From: Bilabrum cf. latius
Taxonomy: Eukaryota
Direction: 5' to 3'
Length of the DNA stretch: 64,000 nucleotides
NCBI GenBank assembly: GCA_965178125.1
Contig: OZ237757.1
Coordinates: 434,001-498,000, forward strand
Under the pieces are notes generated by a model that was not told the origin of the DNA, searched no databases, and worked only from the letters and a program-made list of their open reading frames with translations. Position 1 is the stretch's first letter. Each line of letters starts with the position of its first letter. The position numbers and the translations under genes are program-made. This document shows, in pieces, positions 1-64,000 of the stretch.

Positions 1-2
1 CT

Positions 3-3000
3 TCGGGCGCAGCCGTAGCAGTGCCGAAGGCTGCGATGCGTGGAGATTTCCCAGTGCGTGGTCTCATCGTGGCATCGGCTACCCCTGACCTTCCGCTGCT
101 CGACTAGTACATCGGCAGTGACCACATCAGCGTGGATTTGGGCAAGGGCGAGTTTCAGGTGAAGACCAAGATCGAATCGCTCCTGTCCCTCCGAACGGCA
201 CTGGAAACCCACGAGAAAGAGCTGCACTCCGGGTCTCGTTTCAGCATCCTCGGGTCGGATGCCCCGACTAAGCGAGGCAAGGGTGGAGGCTCCAGAGGAC
301 AGCGACAAGAGCTACCACGGGTCAGCTCCATGCTCGGCAAACGGATTGCAAAGACGGTTGCAATGCTGGCATTTCGAGAAGCACACCTCCTCGGAGCAGA
401 AGGGAGAAGCGTGCTCGTATTTGTGCCAGGTAGGGAGGAGGGATACGCTGCTGAACATGCGTTCCACCTGGCCCAAAGCGTACAGGGCACTCAGCCTGGC
501 AACGGCCTCTACAGCACCATAGTCATTCATGAGGACAACATGAACGACAAGAGTATCCGAAGGAGTATGCAGGGGTAGTGCGTGTTCTTTGCCACGCGGG
601 TGGCCGAGTCTTCCATCACGCTGCCCAACGTGGCCTGCGTGATCGATTGCGGCTACGACTGGCAGGACTTATACGATCCAGATCTCAGGACCTATCAGCG
701 CAGGCTAGAGCGGATCTCGCAAGCGTCCTCTCGCCAGAGGAGAGGACGAACGGGTCGCACATGCTCAGGCAGATACATCCAGATGTTCTCCCGCCAAGCA
801 GCCAAGGCCATGCCGAGGCACCCAGTGCCAGGCGTGCTACGGGACGACCTGGCGCCTGTCGCGCTTGATCTCCGTGCATGTGGACAGGACCCGACGTGCT
901 TTCGCTGGATTTCACCACCGAGGTGTGGCGACTTGGTCGAGGCAGATCAGCGGCTGATAGCACTTCAGACCATCCCAGGATTTGATGCCTCGCCGCTTGC
1001 ATCCGCTGTGGAGCTATCTGAGGCCTCATCCAGGGCAGCCACGGTCGCGGAGACCCAAGTGCTAAGACAGCTCGGCCTGCAGCCCTGGCTCGGTGCACTG
1101 GTGCTGCGCGGAATGCGCCGGAATTTCACAACTCGCGTATGCAGCGATATCGTGCAGCTGGCTAGCTTGATTGACCTCGGTGCCATCGATCGGATGCTTC
1201 CCATGCAGCCAGGGGTGATGCAGCTGATTGGTGCCCCTCGAGGCGATCCCATCACTCTGTTGAGAGTGTACAAGGCCTGGAAGCAGGCAATGGCGCAGAG
1301 AGGGTCCAAAGCAGCCCTGGCCATTCTCCAAGCAGTGTATTCAAGGCACGCCGCAGACGACATGCACGGCATCTTCGGCAGGGCTGAAACTAGAGCGGAA
1401 ACCCTGGTGCGTCTTGCCGTCCGGGTTGGGGTGCGGTTGTCCCCCGAAACTCAAAAGTACACGGAGGCTAGCCTGCCCGACGAAGCATTGGATTTGATTG
1501 CCAGCGACAGCCGAGAGGCGGATGCACTGCATGCGTGCGTGAGAGACTTGTCGGATGCGTACGTGGAACATCCCACTGGTATCGAATCGGACATCGCAGT
1601 GCTGCTGGGCTGGGCCCTGAATGACCGGCTGGCGGCCAGAAACGTGGGTAGGAGAGCAGGATACAGCGTGTCAAGGGCGGGTAAATGGCTTGGGATTGGG
1701 CATCTTGACCCGAACTCAGGCCTGGGCATCTCCGGCATCAAGCACGTGGCAGAAGAACCGCCCAGCCCAGAAGGTGGGGGAATAGCCGCATCCGAGGCGG
1801 AGTCGCTTGAGCTTGTGGCCTTTACCAGCGTTGAGAACGACGGTGGATTGCTGCTGAGGGGATGCCTGAGCGTCAGAAGGCAGGAGCTAGTGGATATTGC
1901 TGGGCTGGACGAGAAGCTTATTCCACAGCCGCTCGTCATGACTGAGAGGATCATATCTGGGATATCAACAGCAGGGTACCGCAGCCTGCTCGGCGAAGAT
2001 TGCGCTGACACCGACCGAATTACTCGATTGAAGCACCTTCCAGACTATCGCGTGCTGGTCGAGTCACCCTGGTCAGAGCAGCGGCCTGCGGCTATGGGTA
2101 CATTGTGCTTGTGGGCACCGGAAAGTATTGCAGACGTCGTCGCGGATTGGATTGCAAAACGGGTAGAAGATCATGAAGCTATGGAAGCGTAGCGCATGGA
2201 TGTAGTCCCGATGCCCGCAGAGTAGGGGTTAGACGATAAGGCAGCAGTGCTGCTGGGAGCGGGAGCCCGGCCGCTCCAGCTGCTGCCGTACACCCCCGGC
2301 ACGCAGGAGCTACAAGATCCCGTCTAGCTTGACGTGACTTGCAAGGAATCTGCATATGATGATGGCGGTGCTTCCGCGGGCGATGCAGCTGAAGACGCTG
2401 CGGGCAAGGACTCGAGCGCGAGAAGAAATCACGCAATGGACTGGATGGCTCTTCTTCTGGGATTCCACGAGTGGTACAGAGATGTTGCTCTCGCGATGGA
2501 TTCGCGTGCAGCGACAGACCTCGAACTGAAACATCTCGAGATGGGCCAATTGGTCGCAACAGTGCAGCCGCTTGACAGCGTGTTCCAACGCAACTGCCGC
2601 GCTCGATTCACGACGGTAAGCCCCCTCGCCCTTCGGCAACTCAGAGAGTTCTTCAAGTAGCTCAATTATAACGACCGATTGGCTGCCTACAGCTCCGAGC
2701 TGGTCAGAGCAGTACCAGGCGGATCCGAATTGGATCGGGCGTACGGAACAGAGGTAGAGTGTCACGTGATTGTATCTTGGTTGACCCAGCTCCATGATGG
2801 AGCCGCTACCGTTGAGGTGGACCCTATCGCAGCAGAGACCATGGATCGATACCTTTGCCAGAGCCCCGCTGGGTTCGTTGTTCGCGCAGAGGAGGACGAG
2901 ACTGCGTCCAACGGTAAATCCGGACAGATTTCCGCTACGCTGCACGGGCAGAGGCTCACTGCCACGATGTTTCACGTCTGGGGGCTGAAGCAGAACCGGC

Positions 3001-6000
3001 ATCCGAGCGAGGTTTCTCGTCTTGTTGATTTGGCCTTGCGGCAGGCAAACCAAGTCGAACTGTTCCACGTTCGAGCAAACCTGGTTCGACGTGCTATGCT
3101 CCACTGGGGAGGGCCTGCAAATGGTTAGGTGGGCATGTGGCTGCGGCAAGCCGGCGCAATCGAGGAGACAAAGCCGGAGAAATCGTTCGTGCCCGGGAAT
3201 AGTACAATCTCTGCTAAGCAAGCAGACTAGCCCGCGAACGGGTCTTATGTGTACATACCAACAGGTCTCGTCAAAACCGTGCGAGACAAGCTCAAACGTT
3301 CCAAGATTCGCCTGTAGAATGCCAAGGAGGAGAACGTGTACAAGCTATAGGGGTGCGTGCCTGTGCAAACGCTTGGATTCGTGGTTCACCTCATCGCTAG
3401 TCACGTGCCTTGCGTCGTCAAAACGTACTCTCTAGGCAAGAGTAAAACTATGTCGCGCATTGTTGTACGTTCCGCCGCAGTGCAAAGTGCAGTACTTCAA
3501 CTGCGGTGCGTAGAGAGGGGCAACATCAATCTAAGAAAGGATGAGAAGCCCATCACCGGGGTGAATTCGGTGTTCGCTCGACACGACGTCATGGAATAGT
3601 ATGAGCTCAGGAAGGCGGTTGAGGTCGCTCTCAAGGGGCGCATGCCACTGAGCGACGAGAAGCTCCCTATCCAGGCCTGGATCGAAGGCAAGCGGTTAGA
3701 TGTACCGCTCGCAGCTCTGTCCGAGCGTGAGCGCGATTCGATTTCATTACAGACTCAAAGCGGGAAGGCTTCTGCATCCGCAGCAGCAGCTTCAGCAGGG
3801 GTATCCCAGCCGATTAAGACGCTCCCACCTCCTCCAGAAAACAGAAGTGGAATGTTCGGACTTGCCGGCAATGATTCCGACAGGTCGCGGGCGCTGCAGT
3901 AGATTGCCCACACACTCAGCGATTTGGAGGGTGACTTCCCAGGCGTAGACGGCCAGGCCAAGGATCTCTGCATCAATCCAGAGACAGGGATCGGGTCATT
4001 CCTAATTCGAATGAAGAGATCAGACTAGTGCATGCGGCTTGTGCGACACTTCAACAACGCGGATTTGTGCGGACACTTGCAGTGCAGCCCGGCGAGGGCG
4101 CAATGCTGGATCACAGCCTAGCTGAGTGTGCCGGATGGAGCTGCCCCTTTCGCAGCGAGGGCCTTCTAGTCTGCCTCTGGGCTGTTTGAATACGACGATG
4201 CCAGTGTTACTGTAGCCCGACGCATGCACGGTCCGGCATCAGGGGCCGGTGCTGACGAATCGAAGATCGAGCCGCCATCCGGCGATGTTCCCGAATTTGA
4301 TTCGTGTCAGGAGGCGTCTTTAGTCGCAAACATGCTTCAAATTGGCTGCGTGGAGCCCTGTGTGGAGATGCCCAGGGTGTTTGTGTCTGGATTGTCGAGT
4401 GGCGGGGAAGATAGTCCACTAGAGTAGAGCGTTGGGTTCAATATGTCCACCACGAAGCAGTTTGCTGAGCTATACAAGCACTTGGAACGCGCTGCAGGAG
4501 GCATCCCTCTCATGCAGCTGCTGCAGTTTGTGTGGGACAAGCCACAAAAGGACATTGTTGCCCAGCTGCTCATGCACATGCACGCAGCCACAAGAGACAA
4601 GCCTCTGCGAGACGTGTTGAAAGATTCGGCAACGGCTGCATCTGTGTGGCTACAATTGGATGATCCTGTCTTGGAAGAGCATGCAGGTGACGCGGCTGCA
4701 AGCAAGCACCAGTCAACCTCAGACCTCCCGCAATTGCTATATGGCACACTTGCAGCCGCCACACACTTTGCTCAGTGCCTTGGTCGTGCGCTGGAGGACC
4801 GCCAGTGGGGTGCGGCCGTCTGCTCAGAGGTCGCCTTCTCCGAACTTGGGCCAAGGGTAGCGCGCTACCTCGCTGGTCTTTTAAACTATGGGACTAACAC
4901 TGTCATGCAGTTAGTTGGCAGCAAGGATCCGGAAAAGTTCGTGCTCTCGCGACAAGAAGTGATCGACATCCGCAAGTCAATTCAGGCGATGGACCCGTCG
5001 TCGCCCTCCGATGAATTCAATCCGCTTGCCCCCGTGTGTTTCAAGCACAGGCGAATGATCGGACTGATGGTAGATCTACAGCTGAAGCCAAAGAAGGTGC
5101 TTCGTTTTGTCGGCAGAATCCAAGACCATTGCGACAGGGCGAGGAAGGCGCTGCTCGAGAGACTCATGGACGGCGTGGGAGGCCAGACAGCAGCCGATGC
5201 AACTCTAGGCGATGGCTCAGTCTCGAACAGACTTGAGTTTTGTGAGGTGACCTACGAGCAATTCAAGTGCACGGACAGTGATCTATTCATGCTACGGAAA
5301 AGAAGAGGGCGGCACGCTGTAGTTGAGCCTAGCGGCGTCCGCAAAGGCGCTTCTCTGCCTGCAGAATCAGGTCTTGCTGACGATTCCCGCTCGCTTGCCA
5401 TGTTCATTGGCACTGCTGCTTTGCGTGACCAGGTGTCTGGGATGGATTCTTAGCAACAAACGGAAGTATTGGTTCCTGCTCCCGAATGTGACGTGCCGGT
5501 GCCTCTTGGTCTACTCGCTGAGGCCGTGGGCGTCCAGTCGATCGCGCGAATCGCGGGGATGGCGCTTCTAGGTGCTGCTTCCGGGTCTTGCGGCCGCTTG
5601 CCCTTGCCCACTACCCCACCGGTGGACCGCGGTCCAGCAGCTGGGGCTGAAGCCGGCGCTGGCGCAGCAGGTCATTCGCATGACCTCGGGCTCCTCCAAG
5701 AGCAGCTGCAAAGAGTTGCTCGATGCCCAGGGAAGCAGTGTGGTCGGCTGTGCATGTTTCCCCCCGAGATGGATTGTTCTGACATGGGGTGGCACAGGCT
5801 GGAGGGGAGGTGTCCCCACGCGGACTGCGAGGTGAAGTCATGGTGCATCAAATGCGGGTGGCAGGGTGAGAAGATGCACCCAGGCCCGTGCAGTGCAGCA
5901 GAGCTGTGGTCGAGGAGAGAGGAAGCTGGCAGGCTGGTGCAGCAGCAGTCAAGAGAGACTGGCCTGGACATTCGCCTCTGTGGCAATCCAGACTGCGATC

Positions 6001-6284
6001 ACGGCATCGAGAGGCGAGACGGCTGCAATCACATCACCTGCCTCAAGTGCAGATGCCACTTTTGCTACTCTTGTGGGTACCCCTGGGGCCGTGGAGCAAC
6101 TAGTAACGATGTGTATGCACACTTCAGAAGTAGTACGACTCGTCGGACGGGTTGTGTTACGCATTCGACTGACCACACTCCCTGGGGCAGCTTTAGCCAG
6201 GAGGAGCTCACCCGGCGGCGAGGAGGTGTGCATCTTCCGAGCGGGAAATCGCTAGAGCCAGCTGCTGTGCTTGGAGAGTGCTGA
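3..6284 (+). CDS. DEAH-box RNA helicase fused to C-terminal IBR + RING2 (RBR E3 ligase) domains; 5' end lies outside the window
   Basis: ORF pieces 132, 582, 2334, 2679, 3357, 3642, 4224, 4443 and 5469 share one frame and are separated only by TAG (17 counted); ends TGA 6282-6284. Motifs: LIVASAT (III), VLVFVPG (IV), ATRVAESSITLPNVACVIDCG (V), QRRGRTGR (VI), IBR-like CPGKQC..CPHADC..WCIKC..HPGPC, RING2 CGNPDC..IERRDGCNHITCLKCRCHFCYSC. Confidence 0.9.
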
Positions 6285-6642
6285 CTTACAGGTGATTCGG
6301 TGTCGCTGGGAACATCCGGGAAACATGATGAAATTGACACGTAGTTTCGTTGGCGGCCCTGCAGCCCTGGCGAATCTAGTCCACCGCTCGTTCAGCTGAT
6401 GCGCGTCGCAACCCCTACCACCTCCACCGAGTGCTTGGACTTAACCAACAGGGCGCCCCTTACTGCGCTAAGCCGCTACCCGATATAGACTATACCCCCT
6501 TCCGGCTAATCGAGATCCTTTGGATTGCTCCTCGTCCTCATTCGAAAAACTTTGTTTTTGATCCTTTCATTATTCAGACTGATTGCCTTTACTAGGCAGT
6601 TCGTTTCTTTCTAATGTCCTTCAAATATCATTGATCGGCAGA

Positions 6643-8739
6643 ATGACAACCGGCTGGGCAGCCTTACTCACTTTGACGGCTGTATATGCTCTAAACTAGT
6701 GGGATCGGTATCTCCTGAATAATCTAGCAGGCGCCCGCACGGTTGATTGCAGTCACCACTGCTCAATAAATCATGTGTTTATAGATTAGTGCGGTAAATG
6801 CTAGCCGTACCAGACAGCATTCGCTAATACTTCGACTTGTGCGTCTTGCCAAACGTGTCTTGACAACAATCGCGCTCGCGCAACCAGCATGGCATACGGA
6901 ACTTGTCTAAATGGCAGAGAGTACGGTATATTGACTGGGTTAGGGTTTTCTGGGCTGTATGTGCTAACTGCCGTAATTGCTGGCCGGCTGGTAGATTCCA
7001 TCTCGCCGTACGTCGTGTTGCTAGCAGGGCTGTGTATTTGGTCACTAGCGACCACGGCGCAGTCACTGACGCATAATTTCGCTGGTTTATTTGCTGTGCG
7101 GCTAATTCAAGGCGCAGCTGAAGCCGTGGCAGCGCCGGCATCGTACGCGATTGTTGCGATGATCACGACACCGGACCAACGGGGCCTTGCCAACGGAGTG
7201 TTTTCAGTCGGGGTATATGCCGGCGGGTCTTTGGCTAGTCTTTCAATACTTTTAGCCAGGACAGTCGGGTGGCGCCCGATTTGCGTTGGCCTGGGAGTGC
7301 TCGGAATGTTGCTAGCTTGCTTGCTGTGCTGCCAGAGGCTGTCAGTGGCCACGGAGCTGCAGCGCCGCGGCACTGCCGACCCCACTGAAGCTAGATGCAC
7401 AGAAGATGGAATCGAATGCAGCCACCAAGATACTAACTCAGATGCAGTGTTGCTGATTCGCGATTCAAGCCGCAGGAACGGGCAATGCGAGGGGGAGTTG
7501 CGGGCAGCAAAGCAGGACTTGCATGCGCAACACGTAGCCTGCCCCGAAACGCAGCTGCGCGACGCGGTGCAGTTTCAATCCCTAGCAAGCGTCCAAACTA
7601 GCAATATAATACCACACGGGCAGACACCTGCAGTACGTTGCACCCAGGCGTCCTTAGCAGGGCCGGTCGGGCTGGCTATCCATGACGCAATCGAGGCAGC
7701 CTCCCTCATCGGTGGCAGTCCTCGAGCCCTCCTGCTCCTGGCAGGGTCCTCTGCGCGGTTCTTTGGAGGCTACGCTATCGGCTCATTTCTCGGGAGGTAC
7801 CTTACCAGCGTGTTTCCGGGAAAAGCCGCGGAATATTCCCTGGGGAACGCGGCTGTGATCGGGCTGGGTGGAGCTGCTGCGGCTGTGCTCGGTGGCTTGG
7901 CGGCGGACTCGGCTGCGAGATGCGTGGCTGCCCGGAACTAGCTCGGAAGCAGCGGTGGAGTCACAGTGCAGTGCAGCGCACGGCAGGCTGTGCGAGGTTC
8001 CGACAGATCTGACAGTCCAGGCTCGGAAACAGGCAGCCACGGGACAGCGGCAACCGCGGCCACACCGTCGCTGGCCTTGTTGGAGGCATCCGCGCCAACA
8101 GGGCCGATCAAGACCTTGGAAGACGGTCCAGAATCGGACCGCTTAGCTGCTCAGCCTCTTCTCTCCGGCGAATTGGATGCTCGTATTCTGCATGCAGATG
8201 ACCCAGGAACAACCACAGCTGGTGAGAATCGGTCAGTCCTCGGTTCCATAGTTGGGGAGAGGGAGGAGGAGGAGGAGGAGGAGGGGGAGGGCAGCACGCT
8301 GATCTCGCCGGACCTGGCTCGGGCGGCTGTCCCAGCCCTGTCCGGATTGCTTGCAGTGCCGTGCATGCTGGCGGTTCTGCTAGCACCCAGCCTTGAAACC
8401 GCTTTGGCAGCTCTTGCGGTGGAGTACTTGTTCGCGGAGGGCTGGTTCGGGCCTGTGCTGACCATGCTGCTCGGCGCGCTGCCCAAGCGGGTGCATGGGT
8501 CTGCGGTGGCCGTGTTTGTGGTTTGCACGACGGTCGTAGGGTCCATCGCACCGCTTGTGCTCGGGATTGTGTGGGACCGCGCTGATGCAATGCATGGCAG
8601 TGGTGAAGCGGGTGGGGGGCGGCAGAGCCAGGATGCGGCCAAAGCAGGTGCCCTGCGGTGGCCTCTGTTCGGCGCCGTGGCGGCGTCGTATGGCACCGGC
8701 TCAGTGATGTTTGTGCTAGCCGCACTACAAAACAAGTGA
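6643..8739 (+). CDS. Spinster-like major facilitator superfamily transporter
   Basis: ATG 6643; first helix VYALN*WDRYLLN, AGRLVD and RLIQGAAEA MFS motifs, RGLANGVF, many hydrophobic helices; 4 in-frame TAGs (6697, 6787, 6802, 7939); ends TGA. Confidence 0.85.
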
Positions 8740-12000: not shown

Positions 12001-12437
12001 CGGCTCGGTAGGGGCACTCGGCGAGGTCGGCGGGTGGCGGCGCGGCGCCGGTGGCTGGTTTCGCTGACCCGGGCGCTGGTCCTGTGGGCGAATCGCCGCG
12101 CAGGCAGGGCACCGGCAGGGCAGGCGGAGCCGCACAGCACTCGTCACCCGCTCTCTCTCATCGAAGCGGTGGAGGAAGAGGAGGAGGTGGATCGAGCCAG
12201 GGCAGTACTCCCGCACGCAGGGGCCTCGGGAGCGGTGGGCGAGCTGCGCTGGCATCTGGCGCGTCTGCCGGTTTCACGCCCTCTCCGGCTGCGTCAACGC
12301 GCGGTTCAGCCGCGTCTACCGCAGGGCCCGGCTCTGCGCACAGCGAGGCAGGCAGGAGGCAGGCCCGGTCGTCGCTGAGCAGCGCCGCTGCCAGCATGCT
12401 TGCGGGGACCGGCTCGCCCAGGCTAGGAGGCCACTGA
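9015..12437 (+). CDS. MAP kinase (TEY activation loop) with a long Gly/Ala/Ser/Asp low-complexity C-terminal tail
   Basis: GKGAYGAV loop, then TAG 9249, then VALK, HRDLKPSNLL, DFGLAR, TEYVVTRWYRAPE; all downstream fragments in the same frame broken only by TAG (7 in total); ends TGA followed directly by TAA. Confidence 0.92.
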
Positions 12438-54627: not shown

Positions 54628-55725
54628 TCAGTTGCCGATCGGTGGCGGCAGCGGCTGCCTCGGGTACCCGCCTCCCCCCACGTGCCCAGGCGCGCTGTTG
54701 TTCACAATCATCAGGTGCTTCGAGATCAGGATCATGTCGTCCACGTAGCTGTTCCCCTCCCCGCCCACGCCGCTCATCTCGATCCCGTACACCTCCCGCA
54801 CCTCGTCTGCCACCCCGTGCTCCACGCACACCTGCTGCGCGTCCCAGGCCGTGTCGTCCACCTGGTAGGCCCCGTAGTCCACGAGGGCCTACAGGATCTT
54901 GCGGGCCACGGGGGTGGCCAAACTGGCGTTGAGGTCGCTGGCCTCCGTTGGCTTGACGGCGAGCAGAGTGCCCTGGCGCATCCATGGGTTGGTTCCGTTG
55001 TAGGCAATGTCGCTGCTGTTGTCCAGAGCGTAAGTATCGCAATTCGTGGCTGGCCATCGGAAGCACTCTTGCGGCTGGCCAGCCGGCGGCTTGAACAGGT
55101 AGTCTTTTCCGAACACCTCCCACTTGAGCACGTGCTGGATTGGCCCGCTGCCAGGCAGCAGCTCACCAAGGCGGATGGTCCCGCCGATGCTCGACAGACC
55201 GGAGCCGCTGTGACCGCCATACATACCCTCGGCATAAATCGACCCATTCACGCTTGGCTTAATGTCGTTGGTCGTGTATCCGTAGACGGGCCCGTTTATC
55301 TTACAACGAGTGAGCGGATTTAGAGATACCATTGTGCTTCCATCCGGTTGCAGCACTGCAGCAGCGTTGTTTGGGGTTACATAAGGATCTTCACTGGCAT
55401 CAGGTACCACGAGCCGGGCCGGAAACACAATGTTGCCATGCACCTATGTCCCATTTTGGCAGCGCTTGTTCCAAGATCCGGGGTTTTTCCATTCCACTGT
55501 TGGATCGCTAGCCTCAGTGATTACGAACCAGTCTTCATCGAACGTAAACACCTTCGAGCCGTCGATACCGGACGGGATGTATTGCGCGCTACCGCCAATC
55601 GCAGTGTTCCATATTGAATCCGACTTGAATGGCCATATTAGCTTGTTTCTGGTACCGTCTGGGAGAATATGCTGTGACAGCACGACAGGTGATGCAATGC
55701 AAAGCACCGTTATTGCAGTTTTCAT
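54628..55725 (-). CDS. Secreted protein of unknown function, paralog A of an inverted pair
   Basis: Signal peptide MKTAITVLCIASPVVLS; WPFKSDSIWNTAIG, GGHSGSGLSSIGGTIRLGEL, FRWPA; TAGs 55444 and 54889; ends TGA. Confidence 0.85.
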
Positions 55726-55840
55726 GGTATTTGTCTGTCTAGGGACCAAACTGACGAAATAGGATCCGGTTATGTGGAGATGACGAGTTGCACTTGACGT
55801 GTATCGTTCTGGTTCTTCATGCCATTACAAGACACAAATA

Positions 55841-56953
55841 ATGCGCAGGAGCACGCCGGTACTTGTCTTTTGTATTTGTTTTAGTCTCGGGTGGTTGGTT
55901 GATGCATAGCATATTCTCCCAGACGGTACCAGAAACAAGCTAATATGGCCATTCAAGTCGGATTCAATATGGAACACTGCGATTGGCGGTAGCGCGCAAT
56001 ACATCCCATCTGGCTTGAATGGATCTCACGTTTTCACGTATGATGAAGACTGGTTCGTGATTGCCGATTCTGGCGATCCTCAAGTTGAGTGGCGGGCCCC
56101 CGTTTCTTGGGGGACGCGATGCGGCAATGGCTCTCAAGTGTTTGAGAAGATCAATTTTCCGCCACGCTTGCTCGTCCCAGATGGAAGCACTGATCCACAT
56201 TCTACGCCAAATAACGCTGCTGCCGTCCTTCAGCCGGATGGAAGCACGCTTGTGTCAATGAATCCGCTGGCGCGCTGCAAGATCAATGGGCCAGTGTACG
56301 GCGATGCCACGCCTGCAAATGACCCGAAAGTCAACAGCTCAATCTATGAAGAGGGGCAGTTCGGCGGTCACGGCGGCTCCGGCCTGTCGAGCATCGGCGG
56401 GACCATCCGCCTTGGTGAGCTGCTGCCTGGCAGCGGGCCAATCCAGCACGTGCTCAAGTGGGAGGTGTTCGGAAAAGACTACCTGTTCAAGCCGCCGGCT
56501 GGCCAGCCGCAAGAGTGCTTCCGATGGCCGGCCATGCGGTGCGACGGGTACGCTTTGGACAACAGCAGCGACATTGCCTACAACGGAACCAACCCATGGA
56601 TGCGCCAGGGCACTCTGCTCGCCGTCAAGCCAACGGAGGCCAGCGGGCTCAACGCCAGTTTGGCCACCCCCGTGGCCCGCAAGATCCTGTAGGCCCTCGT
56701 GGACTACGGGGCCTACCAGGTGGACGACACGGCCTGGGACGCGCAGCAGGTGTGCGTGGAGCACGGGGTGGCAGACGAGGTGCGGGAGGTGTACGGGATC
56801 GAGATGAGCGGCGTGGGCGGTGAGGGGAACAGCTACGTGGACGACATGATCCTGATCTCGAAGCACCTGATGATTGTGAACAACAGCGCGCCTGGGCACG
56901 TGGGGGGAGGCGGGTACCCGAGGCAGCCGCTGCCGCCACCGATCGGCAACTGA
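55841..56953 (+). CDS. Secreted protein of unknown function, paralog B of an inverted pair
   Basis: Signal peptide MRRSTPVLVFCICFSLGWLVDA; same motifs as paralog A; TAGs 55907 and 56690; ends TGA. Confidence 0.85.
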
Positions 56954-57134: not shown

Positions 57135-59900
57135 TCATCCAATCTAGCCCAGCTCTACGGCTCTAATCGCCGCCACGCAATCACCGTGTCCCCTCACCAA
57201 GGCTGCTTGAAGCGGGGTACACAGCGCACCGTCGCACCTGCCGCGCCTGTGCAGACCTCCCGCCAGCGCACCCAGCCTCAAGCACCTCTGCAGCTCAGCG
57301 AGCCGCCCATCCCTTGCCGCAGCATGCAGCCTGCTCGCGTGGTCATGCGCAGTTCTTGCCCTCCTGTGCAGCAGCACGACATTTCTTCGGCTAGTCGGGG
57401 TTCGATTCGCCCCAAAGCCAGGTTGTCGACCCGTGGAAATCTGCCTCTGCAAGCTACTCTGCACCGCCGGTGAAGGAAAAACTGGTGTCTCTGGCTCTGA
57501 TACACCGACTGAGGGGACCACTGTTGTCAGCACCGATGCCTGAGCCGGTTGTGGTGCTGGCACAATCGAACCAAGACTGCTGGGTACATGTGAGCTTGGA
57601 CCAGCCGCGACTCTGATCTCCTGGACCTTGCTCATCCCAGCGGGGGGCAGCTTGCTGATATAACCCTTGCTCTAGCCCAGCCTCTGCACGCACACCTCGG
57701 GCAATGCATCGTCCTCTCCCTTCTTGCAGCAAGCCAAGAACGACTCCCGCACCGAGTCAGCTCCAGACTGCCGCACCATACCGCTTGGCACACTGTCACT
57801 GACATCCCCCAGGCTGCTCGTGCCAGAGTCACGCGACCTTTGCACCAATCGGTCCCATCCTGTTTGGTTGAACAAGAAGAACACGAGCGAGTCCACGCGC
57901 GCGCTCCACACCGCCCTCCCGGCGCTGTGCTGCATCCCGTCCCTGTAGTCGTGCTCGTTCCGCCTCAGCCTCACCTCGAGCTTGAGGTGCCTGCTCCCTC
58001 GAGCCATGGCCACGTACTTGTCATCTTCCCACGCTGGCACAAAGACGATCACCCCGCAAGGAGGAGGCTGTGTAAAGCTGCTGCTGCTGTCGTTGCTTGG
58101 CCCAGGCCTCGCCTGGGCGCCCTGTCCAGTCCCACGAGCGCCCCAGCCCAGCTCCCACCACTGGCTCTCGTTCGTCCCGTGTGGCCTACCGGACTCAACC
58201 GCATTTAACAGATCGATGGAGTGCTCCACCGCCCGCCGCATCATGTAGCTCGTGAAGGGGGGATTGCACTCTGCCACGAACCCGCGCGTGCGAGATACGC
58301 CGTCTGGCCTGAAATCGAAAAAGGAGCCGGCCGAGCCGAACGGCGCGTCCGTGTCGGGAAACGCGGAACAGAACGAGGGAAAGTACGCGTTCAGTGGGCT
58401 GGCGAAGCACTCGTGCTCCACACCAGCGCAATCCCCCAGCCACTGCATCACCCTCCGGGGCACGGAGCCCTGGATCCCGCTCGTGGTCCGGCTGAGTGTC
58501 TCGTATCTCGCCACCATGCAGAAGAGACAAGAGAGGAAGGAAGGACCGATCATAGGGGTTGCATGGGAGCTTTGATCTCCTTCTGCTTGTCCGGTGCTGC
58601 TCTTGGAAATGCCAGCAGCGCCAGCGGTGGAGGAAGCAATGCTGCTGCTTCCAGCCGATTCTCGAGGTCCTGCCTGGTGCCAGTGCATCGCCAGCAGCTT
58701 AGCTACCCAAGAGGCTCGAAGGACGAAATTGCAACGGAGCGGCTAGACCTACCCCGCTTCGCGCGGTGTGACGAGTGCACTGGCCGCCGCCCAGCCGGGC
58801 TCTGCGTATCCCATCAAGGGGTCGGAGCCGAGTACGGCCCTGGCCAGTGGCGAGACAGGCAGGCCGGTACCGCCTTCAGGTACCGTCGTTGGACTCGGGC
58901 GGCGGTCGTACTTCAGAAAATGTAAGCCTACGCTGGCACTGTCGATGAGCGGTTTCGCGAGGGCGCCCCCCGGCAGCAGCATGGTGGCCAGCATGCCCTG
59001 CAGGCCCTGGTCCTCGGGGCAGAAAGCGAGCATGGCCCAGTGCTCGTTGGCGGGTCCGAAGTGCGCCATTCTCTGCTTATGTGACACTCTTGCTACCAGC
59101 GCGGCGGCATATGATGTCACGATGGCTCCGATTGTGCTCGTATCCACTGTGCGGGTCCCGGGCACAGCTGCCGTCCTGCTAGTGAGAGGCTGTGCGCTGC
59201 CTGGAGCGGCGCTCACATTCACGGCCCGGTCCCAATTAGGAGGGCCAGCAATGCCGCAAGCTATGCAAACGCCGTTTTGGATCTAACGGACTGGTACGGC
59301 CAAGTCTTGCTAAAGTGCACTTGCAACCTTTGCTGAAGCGCTTGCGAGACTGTTCGACAGCCGGCGAGCAGCTCCTCGCGCCCCTTGCTCAGAGACACCA
59401 GCCTTTGCGAGCTCGCCCACCATGCCTGCATCTACATATTCAGGCACACTTGGTACTAATGGGTCGCTTGGGGACGGGCTGAGCTGCCGCTGTTGGTTGA
59501 TGGCCGCGAACAGCCAACGCGCCCACATGCCTTGGGTGCCCAGCACCCATCCAGTGTCACGTATAGCTCTGCCACTCTTTGTGACAAGTGATGGTTGTGC
59601 CTAAAATCTGCGAGACACTTCGTGTGCAAGCTGTATCCTGGCCCGATTCAGGTAGTACGCCCTCCGTATGGCGCTGTTGGGCGAGTCGGAAGGCACAGAC
59701 CTCTTCTCGACCGATGCAGCTATTCTTGTTGGTTTTGATGCAGCAGAATGTTTTTGTTGGACACAATGTAACACTTCCGGGTCGTACGTGGACTCATTCG
59801 TATCTGTGTTGAAGAAATACTTCCTTCCCGTTCGACGCGAGATGCGCACTACCCAGCTGGAGTGGAGGACACTGGTGCGCTGCACGGCCAAGCCTTCCAT
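57135..59900 (-). CDS. PCIF1: Cap-specific adenosine N6-methyltransferase (CAPAM/PCIF1): N-terminal WW, MTase domain, C-terminal ankyrin-like repeat
   Basis: WW: WVVRISRRTGRKYFFNTDTNESTY; MTase: RYETL..GIQGSVP..ECFASPLN..FCSAFPDTDAPFGSAGSFFDF..ECNPPF..VFVPAW; five fragments in one frame with 7 TAGs; ends TGA 57135-57137. Confidence 0.88.
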
Positions 59901-60210
59901 TGCAGATGCAATATTGCAGCGATTCTCTGATATGCAGCTGTGCTTCTGCGTTTCCAGTGGAGTGGAGCGAGCACAAAAGCTTGCGCATTGCTTCACTCAT
60001 CACGCTTCTCTGCCAGTGCCGGGAGTCAACCCCCGCGCGCCGTGGAGCCGGCCGCTTGGATCACGTGCAGTAAGACCTAGCTGTGATCACACGGGTACAT
60101 TGTGCATGCATACCTCTCCGAACAAATCTCACGATGCAGCCTGCCAGAACCCACACCATGCGAAGGCAATCGCTGCCCCACACCCACCCACCCACCAGCG
60201 CTCGATTGCT

Positions 60211-61973
60211 TCACTGCCTCCCCCCCTACCTCGCCGAAGCCACACTCTAGTACCACCCTAGGGGCTCACCAGGCTTGTTCGCCTTGCACAGCGTCTTTGC
60301 CTCCAAGAAAGGCCCCAGTGCATTGGGGCCCATCTCCCTGCCGATCCCGCTCTCGCCCATCCCACCCCAGGGGAGCTGCGGCGGCACGGGCTGCGCGCAA
60401 TTCTCCCACACAGTCCCTGCCCTGATGCCGCGGGCCACACGTCGCATCGCGTCGTCGTCTCCACCGAAGACCGCGGCGGCAAGCCCGAACTCGGAATCGT
60501 TTGCCATGGCGATGGCCTCCTCCTCCGTCTTGTAGGTCGCCAGGTGACCCACAGGCCCGAAGATCTCAGTGTTCCACAGCGGAGTCCCCGGAACAACCCC
60601 ATCAAGCAGCGTCGGCTCCACGAAACAGCCCTCCGGGATTCGATCCCCGGCAGACTCGTCCGCAAACGAGCCCGTGAGCAGCGTGGCACCGGCCGCCTTC
60701 GCCGCCCGAAGCCCCTGGAACACCTTGTCCCGCTGGGCGGCGGAGATCACAGGGCCCAGCTCGTTGGCTCTCTCGTCCTCCGCAGCGCCGCAGCCTCTCC
60801 ACCCAGTGGCAGTCTCCGACTCGGAATCAGAACCGCTGCCTGAACCGCCCCCCCCCGCGGGAGGCATCAGGCCATCGTCACCCGCCAGGTGCTCGAATGG
60901 CCCTCCCACGCGCAGCCCCTTCACGGCCTCCGCCAGCCTCTCCTTGACCTCGCTGTGAATGGACTCGTGCACGATCATGCGGGCCGTGGAGGAGCAGATC
61001 TGGCCCGCGTTCCAGTAGGTGGAGAACAGGAGGTGCTCCACGGCGGTATCCAGGTCGGCGTCATGCATGACCACGGCGGGGCTCTTGCCCCCAAGTTCCA
61101 GCACGACCGGCCGCGCCCCTCGAGCGGCAGCCTGCATGACCCGCTCCCCCGTGGGGCCGCTCCCCGTGAAGGAGAGCTTGCGACCAAGAGGGGAGCGAGC
61201 AAGTGCCTCGCCAACGGCACCGTCCCCGCACACCACCTGAAGCACCCCGGGGGGCAGCATACCCGTATCTTCTGCCGCCTGTGCCAGCGCGAGTGTCGTG
61301 AGCGGGGTCAGCTCCGATGGCTTCAGCACGATGGGGCACCCCGCCGCCAGGGCGGGCGCCGCCTTCCAAGCAGCCATCATGAGTGGGTAGTTAAAGGGAC
61401 AAATACCCACCACCGTGCCGATGGCCTCGTGGGTGATTTCACCCCGATAGTCTCCGGTGTGGTCCATCCTGTCGGCGAGACGCTCCGTGAACACACCACC
61501 AGGCTGCCCTCCCTTGATGGCTTCCTAGGCGCAGTAGCGGAACGCCGTGACCGCCTCATCGACGTCCCCCTCGGCCTCCTTCAGCGGCTTCCCAGTGTTT
61601 AAGCTCTCGATTCTGCGATATTGGGAGAGCATATGGCGCATGAACTCGAATCGCGCGGGATTGGAGGGCCCAGTTGCAGCTAGCACCACTCCTCTCACTC
61701 TGCTATCCACGCTTTGCGCTTCTCCAAATTGTCAGCTATCCGGTTCAAGGCCTCCCCGCGGTCCTCTGGCAATGTTGATCTCCAGAGCGCTTCTGCCTAG
61801 AATGCTGCTTCCATGGCAGCGGTAGCTGCGGCCGGATCGTTCGGCTGTTCGCAAATGGTCTCATTCGAGCAAGGGTTGATCACTGGAAACGATTTCTGAA
61901 CCGCGGACCACCGTCCAGCAACGAAATTCTTCATTGGGATTCGCCTTGCGATGCGCGCGGCCCGTGCGGCCAT
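60211..61973 (-). CDS. Aldehyde dehydrogenase, betaine/aminoaldehyde dehydrogenase-like; 2 exons
   Basis: INPC, ESLNTGKP, PFNYPL, LKPSELTP, FTGS, LELGGKSP, GQICSS, EIFGPV, C-terminal EPLGWY; intron 61613-61698; 4 TAGs; first TGA at 60211-60213; Arg-rich N-terminus may be a transit peptide. Confidence 0.92.
61613..61698 (-). other. Spliceosomal intron (ALDH)
   Basis: GTGAG...TCGCAG; restores WIAE-IESLNTGKP. Confidence 0.85.
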
Positions 61974-62134
61974 GACTCCAGATGCGATTGCGAAAGGTGC
62001 GACAGCCTCCTGCCCACACAAACCAGGTCGCTGCTGGAGGCACTCGTCATTTCAAGCGTTTTCGAGGCGACTTTGATTGATCCAATCGCATGCAATATAC
62101 AGCCAATATCGTGATTGTTGCTTCAAGCGCGGCA

Positions 62135-63104
62135 TCAGGGCTTCGCAGCATCGATGGCCTTCCTAATCTCCTCGGCGTGCGCAGCGCCCGCCGCGTCCGC
62201 AGTGGCCTTGCCTTCCTCCTCACCGTGCTTCTCGGCATCCCCAGCATTCTTGGACACCTCGTCCACGCCACCCTTGGCCGTAGAGGCGTGCTCCTACCCG
62301 GCCTCGTCGGCCGATTTCCCAGCCTCTTCCTCCGAGACGCCCCCTGCATCCTTGTCGTTAGACACCGTGATGTGGGTGCTCGTCTCGGTCACGTGCTCAC
62401 CGTGCTCGTTTGTGTGAGTTTTCGTCTCAGTCTTAAGGTTCACGTGCTTCTTCTGCGCGCAGGGCACGTCGTCCTCGCACTTGAGCTGGCAGTCGGGCCG
62501 CGGGCAGTCCGATGGCTTGTGGCAGCTCCACTCGCATTCCACGTCCTCGCACTTCACCTCGCACTTGGCTGACGGGATGGAAGGCACGGTGACGCCACAC
62601 TTGGGAGGCTTGCACACGGTCTCGCATTGCGGGCAATCCTCTTTCTCGCACACGTCCTCCGGGCACTGGACCTCGCACGCGGGCTCCTCACTGCGATCCG
62701 AGAGAGCAGGCGCAGCAACACGGCAAATGAAAATACGTGAGATGAACTAGATACGAGCGGGTAGTACATGTGCAAGTAGTACATGTGCAATGCTCTAGAC
62801 TACTTACCAGCTCGTTTTCGTGGACAGTTCATGCTCTTCGCAAGTGGTTTGGCACTTGGGTGCCTTGCAGACCGGGTCGCATACCTGCATGAGCATGAAT
62901 TGAACAAGGGTACGCGGAACTAGGCGCCTAAATGAATAACGCGCAATGGTATCCCGAATGGAAGCAGGTACAGAATCTCACCTGAGGGCATACTGGGTCT
63001 GTGCACTCCCATCGGCATACTGGGTGGCAAGACTCGTCAACTTCACCTTCCTATGCGTACGCAACGGACAAGAAAACGAAAGAAGCAACAGTAAGCAGCC
63101 TCAT
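62135..63104 (-). CDS. Secreted cysteine-rich (CxxxC repeat) protein with an acidic/His tail; 3 exons
   Basis: MRLLTVASFVFLSVAYA*EGEVDESCHPVCRWECTDPVCPQ|VCDPVCKAPKC..; introns 62885-62981 and 62691-62807 keep the Cys register; TAGs 63051 and 62294; ends TGA. Confidence 0.82.
62691..62807 (-). other. Spliceosomal intron (Cys-rich protein intron 2)
   Basis: GTAAG...TCGCAG; contains a 15-bp tandem duplication GTAGTACATGTGCAA x2 (62761-62790). Confidence 0.8.
62885..62981 (-). other. Spliceosomal intron (Cys-rich protein intron 1)
   Basis: GTGAG...ATGCAG; joins CPQ to VCDP. Confidence 0.8.
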
Positions 63105-63589
63105 GGGGGCTACGCTGCAGCAATGTATTTGGCCCTGAGCTGGCTCAATTTAGTCAGATTCTGCTCGCAACATTCAAGCTGCATTCGTCACAGACAGAGC
63201 AGTTGCTGCAAAATTTCATTCGGAGTGTCCTGTTGATTACACGACGTTTCAATGGCGTTATTTGACCGTAGCAGAGTTCGATTGCATCTTACATTTGAGC
63301 GACGTGCTGGGGGTACTTTGGTTGTTCCAGTCGTCACAGAAACTCCTAGAGAGGCATGGCCAAGGTTGAATCGATTGTCAAGTCTTGTGCTCGATCATGT
63401 ACGAGATCTCGTGTTGAAAAAGGGCCTAGATTTGCTTGGCTACGTTGGTTTAGAAGTTCGCGATGCAGGTCTTCGAAAGAAAGGGTAGGATGAGTTCTCG
63501 ACGTAGTTCGAGATGGACATTGAGATTGGGATTGGCAGCTCGTCATACCGCGTCCTCGAATTGGGCGGGGTTCGGGCGCAGACGGCCAG

Positions 63590-64000
63590 TCAACCTACAA
63601 CATCGGTCCAATCTGAGTAGCTGAAGGAAGGCGACGCCATAGCCTCCACCCTGCCTGCCATGCGCTCGTCTGAAGTGGCATTGCACCCTTTGATTGTGTC
63701 CATCCAGCCAAAGACAGGCATCCAAGCTGATCTGGCAAGAGAAGGCTATAGCGACCATCCATCATTGCCCAGTACTACATCGATCGGAGGCATTACACTA
63801 AGGAGTGCGGTGCCGGGGGCCGGTGCCTCCTTGCCGACAATGCCGTCGGCCGCCAGCCCAGACACAACTGGAGTGTCCCTGGGACATGCAGCTACTAGCA
63901 GCACTGCCAGCGGGCCCGGTACACCTGCATCATCATCATCATCATCATCATCATTATTTGCAGGATCATCGTCCTCATCATCGGTGCCACAGACAGTGCC
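63590..64000 (-). CDS. 3' end of a hypothetical protein (poly-Asp tract); 5' end lies outside the window
   Basis: Frame open from the window edge through (GAT)8 and one TAG to TGA 63590-63592. Confidence 0.45.

What the first reader, a model, noticed from the sequence alone, without database searches (positions are those of the whole stretch)
1..64000. Non-standard nuclear genetic code: UAG is a sense codon (most likely Gln) throughout the window
Seen: essentially every gene on both strands is a chain of same-frame ORF fragments broken only at TAG (about 100 by hand count over about 21 genes; 17 in the 6.3-kb helicase alone). I found no internal in-frame TAA/TGA and no frameshifts other than nine clean GT-AG introns. 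TAGs fall inside folded domains: between the Gly loop and VALK of the MAPK (9249), in the CDK C-lobe (44171), between helicase motifs IV and V (576), and in ALDH (61525). They also occur in tandem (44399-44404), which leaky readthrough would not tolerate well. Known: nuclear UAR reassignment usually affects UAA and UAG together (ciliates, hexamitid diplomonads, some ulvophytes). Inference: full reassignment of UAG in a GC-rich, intron-poor protist that does not look like an AT-rich ciliate or a diplomonad, so possibly an independent and undescribed origin. The lineage cannot be determined here.
Basis: partly seen in the sequence, partly recalled or inferred. Interest (0 to 1): 0.97.

Follow-up and report, generated by a model that had tools for sequence, protein, structure and literature searches.

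The report
UAG read as glutamine, nuclear genes
This GC-rich protist DNA uses the stop codon UAG as an ordinary glutamine codon while UGA and UAA still end genes, a rare kind of genetic code seen here in what looks like a new lineage.

Summary
Read by the standard code, nearly every gene is cut at TAG. With TAG as sense, 20 ORFs (17,837 codons) carry 104 in-frame TAG and no in-frame TAA or TGA, and Pfam domains run across the TAGs.

The TAGs are real. A DNA run and three transcript-like runs from two other studies match with no differences. That includes spliced contigs across ALDH and the glycosyltransferase.

TAG most likely means Gln:
- One WW repeat has TAG where six repeats have CAG.
- Two paralogs show TAG/CAG and TAG/CAA.
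- A 92%-identical relative has Q at one site.
- Likelihood ranks Gln first.

TAA stays a stop. None is in frame where about 35 would be expected, and one gene ends in TAA against 20 in TGA.

All 23 environmental loci encoding relatives of one protein show the same TAG pattern.

The only named close relative is Cafeteria, a stramenopile. Seven full-text searches found no report of such a code in stramenopiles. The tRNA-Gln(CUA) and the eRF1 change are inferred, not seen.

Verdict: a new member of a known kind of code (UAG-only to Gln).

The parts
3..6284 (+). Helicase_C ... IBR protein, 5'-open ORF of 2093 codons with 17 in-frame TAG (e.g. 576-578). Ends in TGA.
6583..8739 (+). MFS transporter ORF, 4 in-frame TAG. 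Ends in TGA.
9015..12437 (+). MAP kinase with a long low-complexity tail, 7 in-frame TAG (9249-9251 lies in the N-lobe). Ends in TGA. Used as the lineage marker.
13342..14613 (-). Legume-like lectin exon, 1 in-frame TAG. Ends in TGA.
15345..24017 (+). WW-repeat and PH protein of 2890 codons, 8 in-frame TAG. At 16248-16250 TAG fills the conserved Q of KAKQW, which is CAG in the other 6 repeats.
24634..28509 (+). CLU-like and TPR protein, 9 in-frame TAG. Codon 1158 (28105-28107) is Q in a 92%-identical relative. The only gene here that ends in TAA (28507-28509).
28684..30598 (-). GH30 glycosidase in about three exons. Exon 1 (29621-30598) has 4 in-frame TAG. The final stop is TGA at 28684-28686.
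30795..33899 (-). GH127-like protein, 10 in-frame TAG. The two closest homologs have Q at codons 141 and 464.
34162..38196 (+). Ankyrin-repeat protein, 3 in-frame TAG. Ends in TGA.
38826..40871 (-). Alpha-L-fucosidase, 1 in-frame TAG. Ends in TGA.
40884..43109 (+). ORF with a weak prenyltransferase-alpha repeat match, 6 in-frame TAG. Ends in TGA.
43481..45598 (+). CDK-like kinase exon, 6 in-frame TAG, including 44171-44173 and the tandem pair 44399-44404. Five of the six lie in the stretch laid (44001-63900) and all five are covered by transcript-like contigs with 0 differences.
45657..46463 (+). ORF of unknown family, 2 in-frame TAG, covered by transcript-like contigs.
47158..48246 (-). Small WW-domain protein, 4 in-frame TAG.
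48835..51252 (+). GT4 glycosyltransferase. A GT..AG intron at about 48944-49105 is removed in contigs of 3 runs. The 3 in-frame TAG (49231, 49270, 50473) are kept in the spliced contigs.
51249..53915 (+). ORF of unknown family, 5 in-frame TAG.
54628..55749 (-). Paralog A of an unknown secreted-looking family. TAG at 55444-55446 faces CAA in paralog B. CAG at 55672-55674 faces TAG in paralog B.
55799..56953 (+). Paralog B. TAG at 55907-55909 faces CAG in paralog A. One TAG is shared by both copies.
57135..59996 (-). PCIF1-like protein with a WW domain, 7 in-frame TAG, all covered by a transcript-like contig with 0 differences. Ends in TGA.
60211..62690 (-). Aldehyde dehydrogenase. The intron 61613-61698 is removed in contigs of 3 runs. 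TAG at 61525-61527, 60247-60249 and 60226-60228 are kept in them. Ends in TGA at 60211-60213.

Best explanation
The window is nuclear DNA of a GC-rich (about 60%), compact, intron-poor eukaryote. In it UAG has been reassigned from stop to glutamine. UGA is the usual terminator and UAA remains a rarer one. In mapping this equals NCBI table 15.

Shown here: TAG lies in frame inside conserved domains of every gene examined. It is kept in spliced transcript-like assemblies. It lines up with Gln codons in repeats, paralogs and close relatives.

Inferred from work on other UAG-reassigned eukaryotes (Panek et al. 2017, PMC5304391, passages read): a tRNA-Gln with anticodon CUA decodes UAG but cannot pair with UAA. 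Such a tRNA is one base away from the ordinary tRNA-Gln(CUG). The release factor eRF1 has lost recognition of UAG while keeping UAA and UGA. New TAG codons then arise mainly from CAG by C-to-T transitions at tolerant sites. The trait is shared by a set of environmental relatives, so it belongs to a lineage and not to one strain.
For: 1. Sense codon.
- 104 in-frame TAG, against 0 TAA and 0 TGA, in 17,837 codons of 20 ORFs.
- The ORFs lengthen only when TAG is opened.
- Pfam domains span or follow TAGs.
- In-frame codon usage continues after the last TAG, at +0.28 bits per codon over 3,319 codons.

2. Real, and present in RNA.
- DNA run X4 has flat depth of about 104-277 and no differing letter at any TAG.
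- Runs X5-X7 come from two other studies. Their depth varies by gene over about 100-fold.
- They hold contigs that skip GT..AG introns, which X4 does not.
- Their listed pieces cover 25 of the 33 in-frame TAG in 44001-63900 with 0 differences.

3. Glutamine.
- TAG sits in 1 of 7 WW repeats where the other 6 have CAG.
- The paralog pair shows TAG/CAG, TAG/CAA and TAG/TAG.
- P0156, 92% identical, has Q at CLU codon 1158 and ends just before the next TAG.
- The two closest GH127 homologs have Q at 2 of 5 alignable TAG sites.
- At 10 TAG sites with homologs of at least 40% identity, Q has a share of 0.38. The known Gln codons score 0.41 (CAA) and 0.59 (CAG). All 15 control codons gave their true residue first.
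- Log-likelihood: Q -24.3 against the next best, K, at -33.5. The right residue came first in 5,498 of 5,500 control draws.
- In an independent set of environmental loci Q ranks first under all 5 filter settings.
- Among pairs at least 60% identical, TAG most often faces CAG (13 raw, 5 after removing duplicates).

4. TAA is a stop.
- 0 in-frame TAA where about 35 are expected from the CAA/CAG ratio.
- The only TAA with long open frame on both sides in a gene's own frame is the CLU end. The frame beyond it is antisense to GH30 exons.
- 20 of 21 gene ends are TGA and 1 is TAA.
- In 22 ORFs of the environmental loci: 182 TAG, 0 TAA, about 125 expected. Of 10 complete ORFs supported by family or Pfam, 4 end in TAA and 6 in TGA.

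5. Lineage-wide. All 23 loci (18 non-redundant) fetched as relatives of the CLU-like protein show the TAG-only lengthening, for example 334 to 1971 and 247 to 1989 codons. Their neighbouring genes (SET, GTP cyclohydrolase II, Pan3, Cluap1) carry in-frame TAG too.
Against: - No tRNA gene was found in the window or in the 23 loci. No eRF1 and no whole genome were available. The mechanism is therefore inferred.
- There is no protein-level evidence.
- TAG sites sit at poorly conserved columns. In the environmental family the Q share opposite TAG is only 0.08-0.35, against about 0.5 for CAG and CAA. At the loosest filter Gln leads Arg by only 2.7 log units over 41 sites.
- At some sites homologs carry other residues: E in human glucocerebrosidase at GH30 codon 249; E or P in CDKs at codon 231; E/A/D at GH127 codon 454; L/Y/I in distant TPR proteins at CLU codon 1213.
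- The zero count of in-frame TAA is partly circular, because the ORFs were delimited by TAA and TGA.
- In the window TAA as a stop rests on one gene. Some ORF ends may be intron borders.
- That X5-X7 are RNA is my inference from splicing and depth. The tool labels X5 'probably DNA'.
- Contigs drop rare variants, so partial editing cannot be excluded.
Confidence: 0.86

Rival explanations
1. Both UAA and UAG are glutamine codons, as in the ciliate/hexamitid code (table 6). UAA is simply rare because the genome is GC-rich.
For: TAA is the rarest of the three triplets: 214 in the window on the + strand, against 469 TAG and 824 TGA. Twenty of 21 gene ends are TGA. UAA and UAG usually change together (Panek 2017, PMC5304391, passages read).
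Against: There are 0 in-frame TAA where about 35 are expected in the window and about 125 in the environmental ORFs. In those same ORFs TAA is common out of frame: 64 and 72 in the window, 86 and 109 in the loci. CLU ends at TAA with no coding continuation. Four of 10 supported complete ORFs in the loci end in TAA.
Confidence: 0.03
2. UAG is a sense codon for an amino acid other than glutamine, for example Glu, Lys, Leu or Tyr as in other lineages.
For: At several sites homologs carry E or L/Y/I. At the loosest filter in the environmental set Gln leads Arg by only 2.7 log units.
Against: The closest comparisons all give Gln codons: the WW repeats, the paralog pair and P0156 at 92% identity. 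Gln ranks first in every likelihood run, by 9-14 log units under the stricter filters. TAG most often faces CAG, one transition away.
Confidence: 0.05
3. UAG has two meanings: Gln inside genes and stop close to the 3' end of some mRNAs. Context-dependent codes of this sort are known in Condylostoma and karyorelict ciliates.
For: TAG lies 4 and 11 codons before the TGA of ALDH and 2 codons before the TGA of PCIF1. The plant ALDH homologs end within a few residues of the first of these. Transcript-like contigs stop 6 and 15 nt past those TGAs, but contigs cannot show transcript ends.
Against: There are 3 TAG in the last 15 codons of 20 ORFs, where about 1.7 are expected by my arithmetic. That is no clear excess. 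Coding signal continues after the last TAG in 18 of the 20 ORFs. In the other two only 2 and 4 codons follow it. No gene needs a TAG stop to match its homologs.
Confidence: 0.06
4. The TAGs are not translated: they are sequencing or assembly errors, pseudogenes, RNA editing, or leaky readthrough of true stops.
For: None was found. Contigs can hide rare variants.
Against: The same letters occur in runs of three studies. Only 6 differing positions were listed in 19,900 bases, all in the paralog pair and none in a TAG. Spliced contigs keep the TAG. Up to 17 TAG per gene, plus tandem TAG TAG, cannot be leaky readthrough. TAA and TGA are absent in frame, unlike in decaying pseudogenes. TAG positions are conserved between 98-99.9% identical environmental contigs.
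Confidence: 0.01

Closest known systems
Iotanema spirale (fornicate): UAG = Gln, with UAA and UGA as stops (Panek et al. 2017, PMC5304391; passages read)
   Same: The same codon table: only UAG is reassigned, and to glutamine. The same predicted mechanism, a tRNA-Gln(CUA) plus an altered eRF1.
   Different: It is an unrelated anaerobic metamonad. There UAA is the dominant stop; here TGA ends 20 of 21 genes. Its eRF1 change (T32G in the GTS motif) could not be compared because no eRF1 of this organism was available.
Ciliates with UAG-only Gln: Protocruzia tuzeti and two phyllopharyngean lineages (McGowan et al. 2024, PMC11687900; discussion passages read)
   Same: UAG to Gln with UAA kept as a stop. 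These cases show that this code arises repeatedly.
   Different: They are ciliates. This window has ordinary chromosomal gene arrangement, spliceosomal introns and about 60% GC, and its closest named relative is a stramenopile.
NCBI translation table 15 ('Blepharisma' nuclear code, also used for amber-recoded phages)
   Same: The formal mapping is identical: TAG = Q, TAA and TGA = stop.
   Different: This is a table, not a lineage. The phage cases found are bacterial viruses. The link of the table's name to Blepharisma is recalled, not checked.
UAR = Gln codes (table 6) of ciliates, hexamitid diplomonads, ulvophytes, Streblomastix and Amoeboaphelidium (listed in PMC11687900 and PMC5304391; passages read)
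   Same: A stop-to-glutamine change, with a tRNA-Gln one anticodon base away from a normal one.
   Different: Those lineages read UAA as Gln too. Here UAA is never in frame and it ends genes.
Rhizarian exLh (UAG = Leu) and Scotinosphaera (UAG = Ser), the other UAG-only nuclear reassignments (PMC5304391, PMC11687900; passages read)
   Same: UAG is uncoupled from UAA.
   Different: The amino acid differs. Leu and Ser rank far below Gln here.

Membership tests
UAG-only stop-to-Gln nuclear code (table 15 mapping) | UAG occurs in frame inside conserved protein-coding genes | tested here: met
   104 in-frame TAG in 20 ORFs, and Pfam domains span them. The same holds in 22 ORFs of the environmental loci, with 182 TAG.
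UAG-only stop-to-Gln nuclear code (table 15 mapping) | UAG positions correspond to glutamine in homologs | tested here: met
   WW repeats show CAG in 6 of 6. Paralogs show CAG and CAA. P0156 has Q. Q ranks first by likelihood in 6 of 6 runs. Caveat: many TAG sites lie in variable columns.
UAG-only stop-to-Gln nuclear code (table 15 mapping) | UAA is kept as a terminator and is not read in frame | tested here: met
   0 in-frame TAA against about 35 expected (window) and about 125 (loci). CLU ends in TAA. Four of 10 supported ORFs in the loci end in TAA.
UAG-only stop-to-Gln nuclear code (table 15 mapping) | UGA is kept as a terminator | tested here: met
   0 in-frame TGA, and 20 of 21 gene ends are TGA.
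UAG-only stop-to-Gln nuclear code (table 15 mapping) | UAG is present in the mature mRNA, neither edited nor spliced out | tested here: met
   Spliced contigs of X5-X7 keep the TAG with 0 differences, and 25 of 33 TAG are covered. That these runs are RNA is inferred.
UAG-only stop-to-Gln nuclear code (table 15 mapping) | A cognate tRNA-Gln with anticodon CUA | not testable with these tools
   No tRNA gene in the window or in the 23 loci, and no whole genome is held.
UAG-only stop-to-Gln nuclear code (table 15 mapping) | An eRF1 N-domain altered so that UAG is no longer recognised | not testable with these tools
UAR = Gln code (table 6) | UAA is read as a sense codon together with UAG | tested here: not met
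   No in-frame TAA, and TAA ends genes.
Context-dependent stop/sense codes (Condylostoma type) | The same codon terminates near mRNA 3' ends | not testable with these tools
   Contigs cannot show transcript ends. There is no clear excess of TAG near ORF ends.
Stramenopiles, near bicosoecids (placement of the organism) | Marker genes group with stramenopile sequences | tested here: inconclusive
   One gene only. The MAPK domain is 66% identical to Cafeteria and about 50-54% to oomycetes and labyrinthulids. It sits in a 96/96 clade with Cafeteria, with Phytophthora outside it. No rRNA is in the window. Other homolog sets carried no names.

The most novel reading that the evidence does not exclude
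This is an independent and so far unreported origin of the UAG-only glutamine code in a clade of GC-rich heterotrophic stramenopile flagellates related to bicosoecids. It would be the first nuclear code change in stramenopiles. It arose in a genome where UGA, not UAA, carries nearly all termination. It is shared by a diverse set of uncultured relatives visible in environmental assemblies.
Probability: 0.45. Interest if true: 0.8.

Novelty: new member of a known kind. Interest (0 to 1): 0.72.

Why it matters
Nuclear code changes that separate UAG from UAA are few. The papers read list Iotanema, a rhizarian, Scotinosphaera, Protocruzia, an oligohymenophorean ciliate and some phyllopharyngean ciliates. 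Each new origin tests how eRF1 can tell UAG from UAA and how a stop codon is captured.

This case is unusual in its background. The genome is about 60% GC and compact, TGA ends 20 of 21 genes, and TAG already supplies 13% of Gln-type codons in the window and 21% in the environmental relatives.

There is also a practical side. Standard-code gene callers cut these genes apart. Many database relatives of the CLU-like protein are short fragments. Proteins of this lineage are therefore mis-predicted in public catalogues until table 15 is applied.

Tried and rejected
- Whole genome: none is held.
- tRNA and Rfam scans of the window found nothing. tRNA scans of the 23 loci found nothing.
- The look-up of sequencing runs: no RNA holder was listed. 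I inferred the RNA nature of X5-X7 from splicing and depth instead.
- Helicase homolog search: only 8 distant hits, 28-41% identity over 5-11% of the query. They were of no use for TAG sites.
- All-against-all search of the window's ORFs: apart from the paralog pair and CDK/MAPK it returned only low-complexity matches.
- First metagenome scan, with the CLU C-terminus: no relative found.
- The listing of cluster members on 19 proteins: no organism names.
A TAG-free MAPK stretch gave only generic kinase clusters and nothing on lineage.
- My counting test for TGA was badly designed, because TAA is too rare to bound the frames. I do not use it.
- The aphelid Amoeboaphelidium, a lead recalled from memory, was dropped. 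The papers list it as UAR=Gln and the nearest named relative here is Cafeteria.
- Pyrrolysine-type decoding was considered and rejected. TAG is 0.6% of codons and lines up with Gln.
- No structure or complex prediction was run, because none bears on the question.
Full report
**1. The observation**

Under the standard code the window's longest stop-to-stop frames are 1096, 594 and 537 codons. With TAG open they become 2899, 2093, 1349, 1291, 1172 and so on. Opening TAA instead leaves the list almost unchanged (ORF lists). The window is 57-68% GC.

Pfam scans of the TAG-open frames give ordinary eukaryotic proteins:
- a Helicase_C protein with a C-terminal IBR domain
- an MFS transporter
- a MAP kinase
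- a legume-like lectin
- a WW-repeat and PH protein
- a CLU-like and TPR protein
- GH30, a GH127-like protein and a fucosidase
- an ankyrin protein
- a CDK-like kinase
- a GT4 glycosyltransferase
- a PCIF1-like protein
- an aldehyde dehydrogenase

I counted 111 in-frame TAG in 22 ORFs, 17 of them in the helicase. For statistics I dropped one unsupported ORF (12553-13305, minus strand) and one end-cut ORF (63252-63998). That leaves 20 ORFs with 17,837 codons, 104 in-frame TAG and no in-frame TAA or TGA. Out of frame, all three triplets are common in the same ORFs.

Sequence after the last TAG of each ORF still has in-frame codon usage, at +0.28 bits per codon over 3,319 codons. The flanks after the TGA or TAA are negative in 18 of 20 genes. 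The IBR domain lies 170 codons after the last helicase TAG.

**2. Are the TAGs real, and are they in the RNA?**

Seven public runs from three studies hold the stretch 54001-63900. Four of them hold 97-98% of the sampled words. I laid four runs on 44001-63900.
- Run X4 behaves as DNA. Its depth is fairly flat at about 104-277, no intron is skipped, and its long pieces have 0 differing letters.
- Runs X5, X6 and X7 come from two other studies. Their depth differs by gene over about 100-fold: about 4-6 over 51305-54624 against about 390-640 over ALDH in X5.
- They hold contigs that skip 48943-49104 (GT..AG) and, on the minus strand, 61613-61698, 62691-62807 and about 62883-62979. The ends are GTGAG or GTAAG and CAG. 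X4 shows none of these joints.

From this I infer that X5-X7 contain transcripts. The tool itself marks them 'RNA?' and X5 as 'probably DNA'.

Their listed pieces, each with 0 other letters, cover 25 of the 33 in-frame TAG in the laid stretch. X4's pieces cover 28 of 33. The covered sites include the tandem TAG TAG, all 7 TAG of PCIF1, and the TAGs of the spliced ALDH and GT4 contigs.

Only 6 differing positions were listed in 19,900 bases. All lie in the paralog pair and none in a TAG codon. Assembly error, and editing or splicing out of the TAGs, are therefore contradicted, within the limit that contigs drop rare variants.

**3. Which amino acid?**

The closest comparisons all give glutamine codons.
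- In the WW-repeat protein the motif KAKQW occurs in seven repeats. The Q is CAG in six and TAG in the third, at 16248-16250.
- The two head-to-head paralogs at 54628-55749 and 55799-56953 differ at two TAG sites, TAG/CAG and TAG/CAA. They share a third TAG.
- In the exhaustive search with the CLU-like protein, P0156 is 72 residues long and 92% identical. It has Q where the window has TAG (ORF codon 1158). It stops exactly before the position of the next window TAG, as a standard-code gene caller would make it do.
- The two closest homologs of the GH127-like protein (48-49% identical) have Q at codons 141 and 464. At codons 127, 454 and 487 they have other, variable residues.

As a calibrated test I collected, for every codon of six window ORFs (the GH127-like protein, MAPK, the CLU-like protein, the helicase and the paralog pair), the residues of homologs at least 40% identical. 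For all 15 control codons listed, the commonest aligned residue was the true one. For TAG (10 sites) it was Q, with a share of 0.38. CAA scored 0.41 and CAG 0.59.

A likelihood over the 20 amino acids gives Q -24.3 and the next best, K, -33.5. With the WW site added these become -24.9 and -37.1. In 5,498 of 5,500 control draws of 10 sites the right residue ranked first.

Results that do not point to Q:
- human glucocerebrosidase has E opposite GH30 codon 249
- CDK16 has E and a Cryptosporidium CDK has P opposite CDK codon 231
- the window's own MAPK has E at that CDK site
- plant ALDHs have D or G at codon 62, and Q or K at codon 488
- MAPK relatives have T, G or S at codon 79
- distant TPR proteins have L, Y or I at CLU codon 1213

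These are mostly variable columns or distant relatives.

**4. UAA and UGA**

TAA is rare overall (214 on the + strand). Even so, it occurs 64 and 72 times in the two wrong frames of the 20 ORFs and never in frame. From the CAA share of CAR codons (0.25), about 35 in-frame TAA would be expected if TAA were also Gln. This test is partly circular, because TAA and TGA bounded the ORFs.

As a further check I looked for TAA codons with at least 150 open codons on both sides. Of 13 such codons, only one is in the frame of a gene: the end of the CLU-like ORF at 28507. The frame beyond it is antisense to the downstream exons of GH30 and gives an arginine-rich, non-protein-like translation.

Of 21 gene ends, 20 are TGA and one is TAA.

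**5. Relatives**

A first scan of metagenome contigs with the CLU C-terminus found nothing. A second scan used an alignment of the conserved CLU-like region (A3). It returned 23 loci, 18 of them non-redundant, at 31-60% identity and 52-61% GC.

In every locus the longest frame grows greatly when TAG alone is opened: L005 from 334 to 1971 codons, L017 from 247 to 1989, L002 from 401 to 1752. Opening TAA does almost nothing. The family ORFs carry 1-28 in-frame TAG each.

Neighbouring genes on these loci also carry in-frame TAG: a SET-domain protein, GTP cyclohydrolase II, Pan3 and Cluap1/IFT38. A malate dehydrogenase has none.

In 22 supported ORFs (18,297 codons) there are 182 TAG and 0 TAA, where about 125 TAA would be expected. 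Of 10 complete supported ORFs, 4 end in TAA and 6 in TGA.

Contigs 98-99.9% identical keep all their TAGs. Across all pairs at least 60% identical, including some fully identical contigs, I counted 57 TAG/TAG pairs. TAG faces CAG 13 times (5 after removing duplicate contigs), CAA twice (once after removing duplicates), and eleven other codons once or twice each.

In this independent set Gln ranks first under all five filter settings. The lead is 2.7 log units at the loosest setting (41 sites) and 9-14 at the stricter ones. The share of Q opposite TAG (0.08-0.35) is well below that for CAG and CAA (about 0.5). TAG codons therefore sit mostly at weakly constrained positions, as expected if they arose recently from CAG at tolerant sites. 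That last point is my inference.

**6. Who is it?**

There is no rRNA or tRNA in the window. The MAPK domain's best named hit is a Cafeteria roenbergensis protein, at 66% identity over 91% of the query. Unnamed environmental sequences reach 57-73%. Oomycetes, labyrinthulids and green algae are near 50-54%.

In a maximum-likelihood tree of 37 rows chosen from those hits, the query falls in an 8-row clade with 96/96 support, together with Cafeteria. A Phytophthora protein is the next named branch outside.

The relatives in that clade were predicted as uninterrupted proteins of 525-682 residues (P0022, at 261 residues, is shorter). That suggests they use the standard code; this is an inference from the lengths.

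So the organism is probably a stramenopile near the bicosoecids. This rests on one gene, and I put it at about 0.6.

**7. How it most likely works**

Panek et al. 2017 (PMC5304391; I read passages of the background and mechanism sections) argue as follows. A UAG-only reassignment needs a tRNA with anticodon CUA, which pairs with UAG and not with UAA. That anticodon is one base from tRNA-Gln(CUG). It also needs an eRF1 with weakened UAG recognition. In Iotanema they saw T32G in the GTS motif.

I take the same mechanism as most likely here (about 0.75). None of it could be checked: no genome is held and no tRNA gene was found.

Whether UAG also terminates near some 3' ends is open. TAG lies 4 and 11 codons before the ALDH stop and 2 codons before the PCIF1 stop. 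That makes 3 TAG in the last 15 codons of 20 ORFs, which is not clearly more than the roughly 1.7 expected.

**8. What is known**

McGowan et al. 2024 (PMC11687900; discussion passages read) list UAG-only Gln in Iotanema, Protocruzia tuzeti and two phyllopharyngean lineages. They list UAG = Leu in a rhizarian and a ciliate, and UAG = Ser in Scotinosphaera. They list UAR = Gln in ciliates, ulvophytes, Hexamita, Streblomastix and Amoeboaphelidium. No stramenopile appears.

Seven full-text searches found no paper reporting a nuclear stop-codon reassignment in stramenopiles, bicosoecids or Bigyra. They combined UAG, glutamine and genetic code with stramenopile, bicosoecid, Bigyra, Opalozoa, Placididea and table 15. 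I saw only the listings and abstracts of the other papers they returned. The library holds open-access PMC papers and bioRxiv only, and supplements were closed, so a report elsewhere cannot be excluded. The runs date from 2025, so their producers may well know of it.

**9. Verdict**

In kind this is the known UAG-only glutamine code. The lineage, the GC-rich genome in which TGA dominates termination, and the set of environmental relatives appear to be new.

Confidences:
- UAG is a sense codon: about 0.98
- Gln: about 0.9
- UAA remains a stop: about 0.9
- mechanism: about 0.75
- stramenopile placement: about 0.6

Noticed in passing
window 54620-56961: Two head-to-head paralogs of a secreted-looking protein with no Pfam family form an inverted repeat. 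The arms, 54620-55676 and 55905-56961, are 86% complementary. The C-terminal part of the two proteins, about 170 residues, is identical, which suggests gene conversion. The few differing letters in the laid runs all fall here.
   Followed up: partly
window 3-6284: A helicase C-terminal domain and a C-terminal IBR (half-RING) domain share one ORF of more than 2,093 residues. The best database relatives cover only 5-11% of it, at 28-41% identity.
   Followed up: partly
window 24634-28509; loci L001-L023: The CLU-like protein belongs to a family with many diverged copies in a few environmental assemblies: 18 non-redundant loci at 31-60% identity. This could be an expanded gene family or many related species. 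Public protein catalogues hold its members mostly as short fragments, probably because gene callers stopped at TAG.
   Followed up: partly
window 46591-46752: A 53-nt unit is repeated 3.1 times at 98% match. The DNA and transcript-like contigs all break at 46620.
   Followed up: no
window 57129-57137 and 60196-60213: Transcript-like contigs stop 6 nt and 15 nt past the TGA of PCIF1 and ALDH. Intergenic spacers are about 180-215 nt. The 3' UTRs may be very short, but contigs cannot show transcript ends.
   Followed up: no
window 60226-60249 and 57144-57146: TAG codons lie 4 and 11 codons before the ALDH stop and 2 codons before the PCIF1 stop. They may be former TAG terminators that are now read through to the next TGA.
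   Followed up: partly
window 44001-63900 (runs X1-X7): The transcript-like runs carry other coded organism labels (B, C) than the DNA runs (A), yet they match the window with no differences. The organism may therefore be present in material labelled as something else.
   Followed up: no
window 61699-62690: The highly covered spliced contig runs about 630 nt upstream of the ALDH reading frame and through two more introns. This is either a long spliced 5' UTR or a second, overlapping transcript. ORFs lie on the minus strand at 62135-62653 and 62554-63030.
   Followed up: no
L008:1251-2678 and L005:917-1918: The environmental relatives encode Cluap1/IFT38, an intraflagellar transport protein, so they are flagellated. 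One malate dehydrogenase gene of 334 codons has no TAG at all.
   Followed up: no
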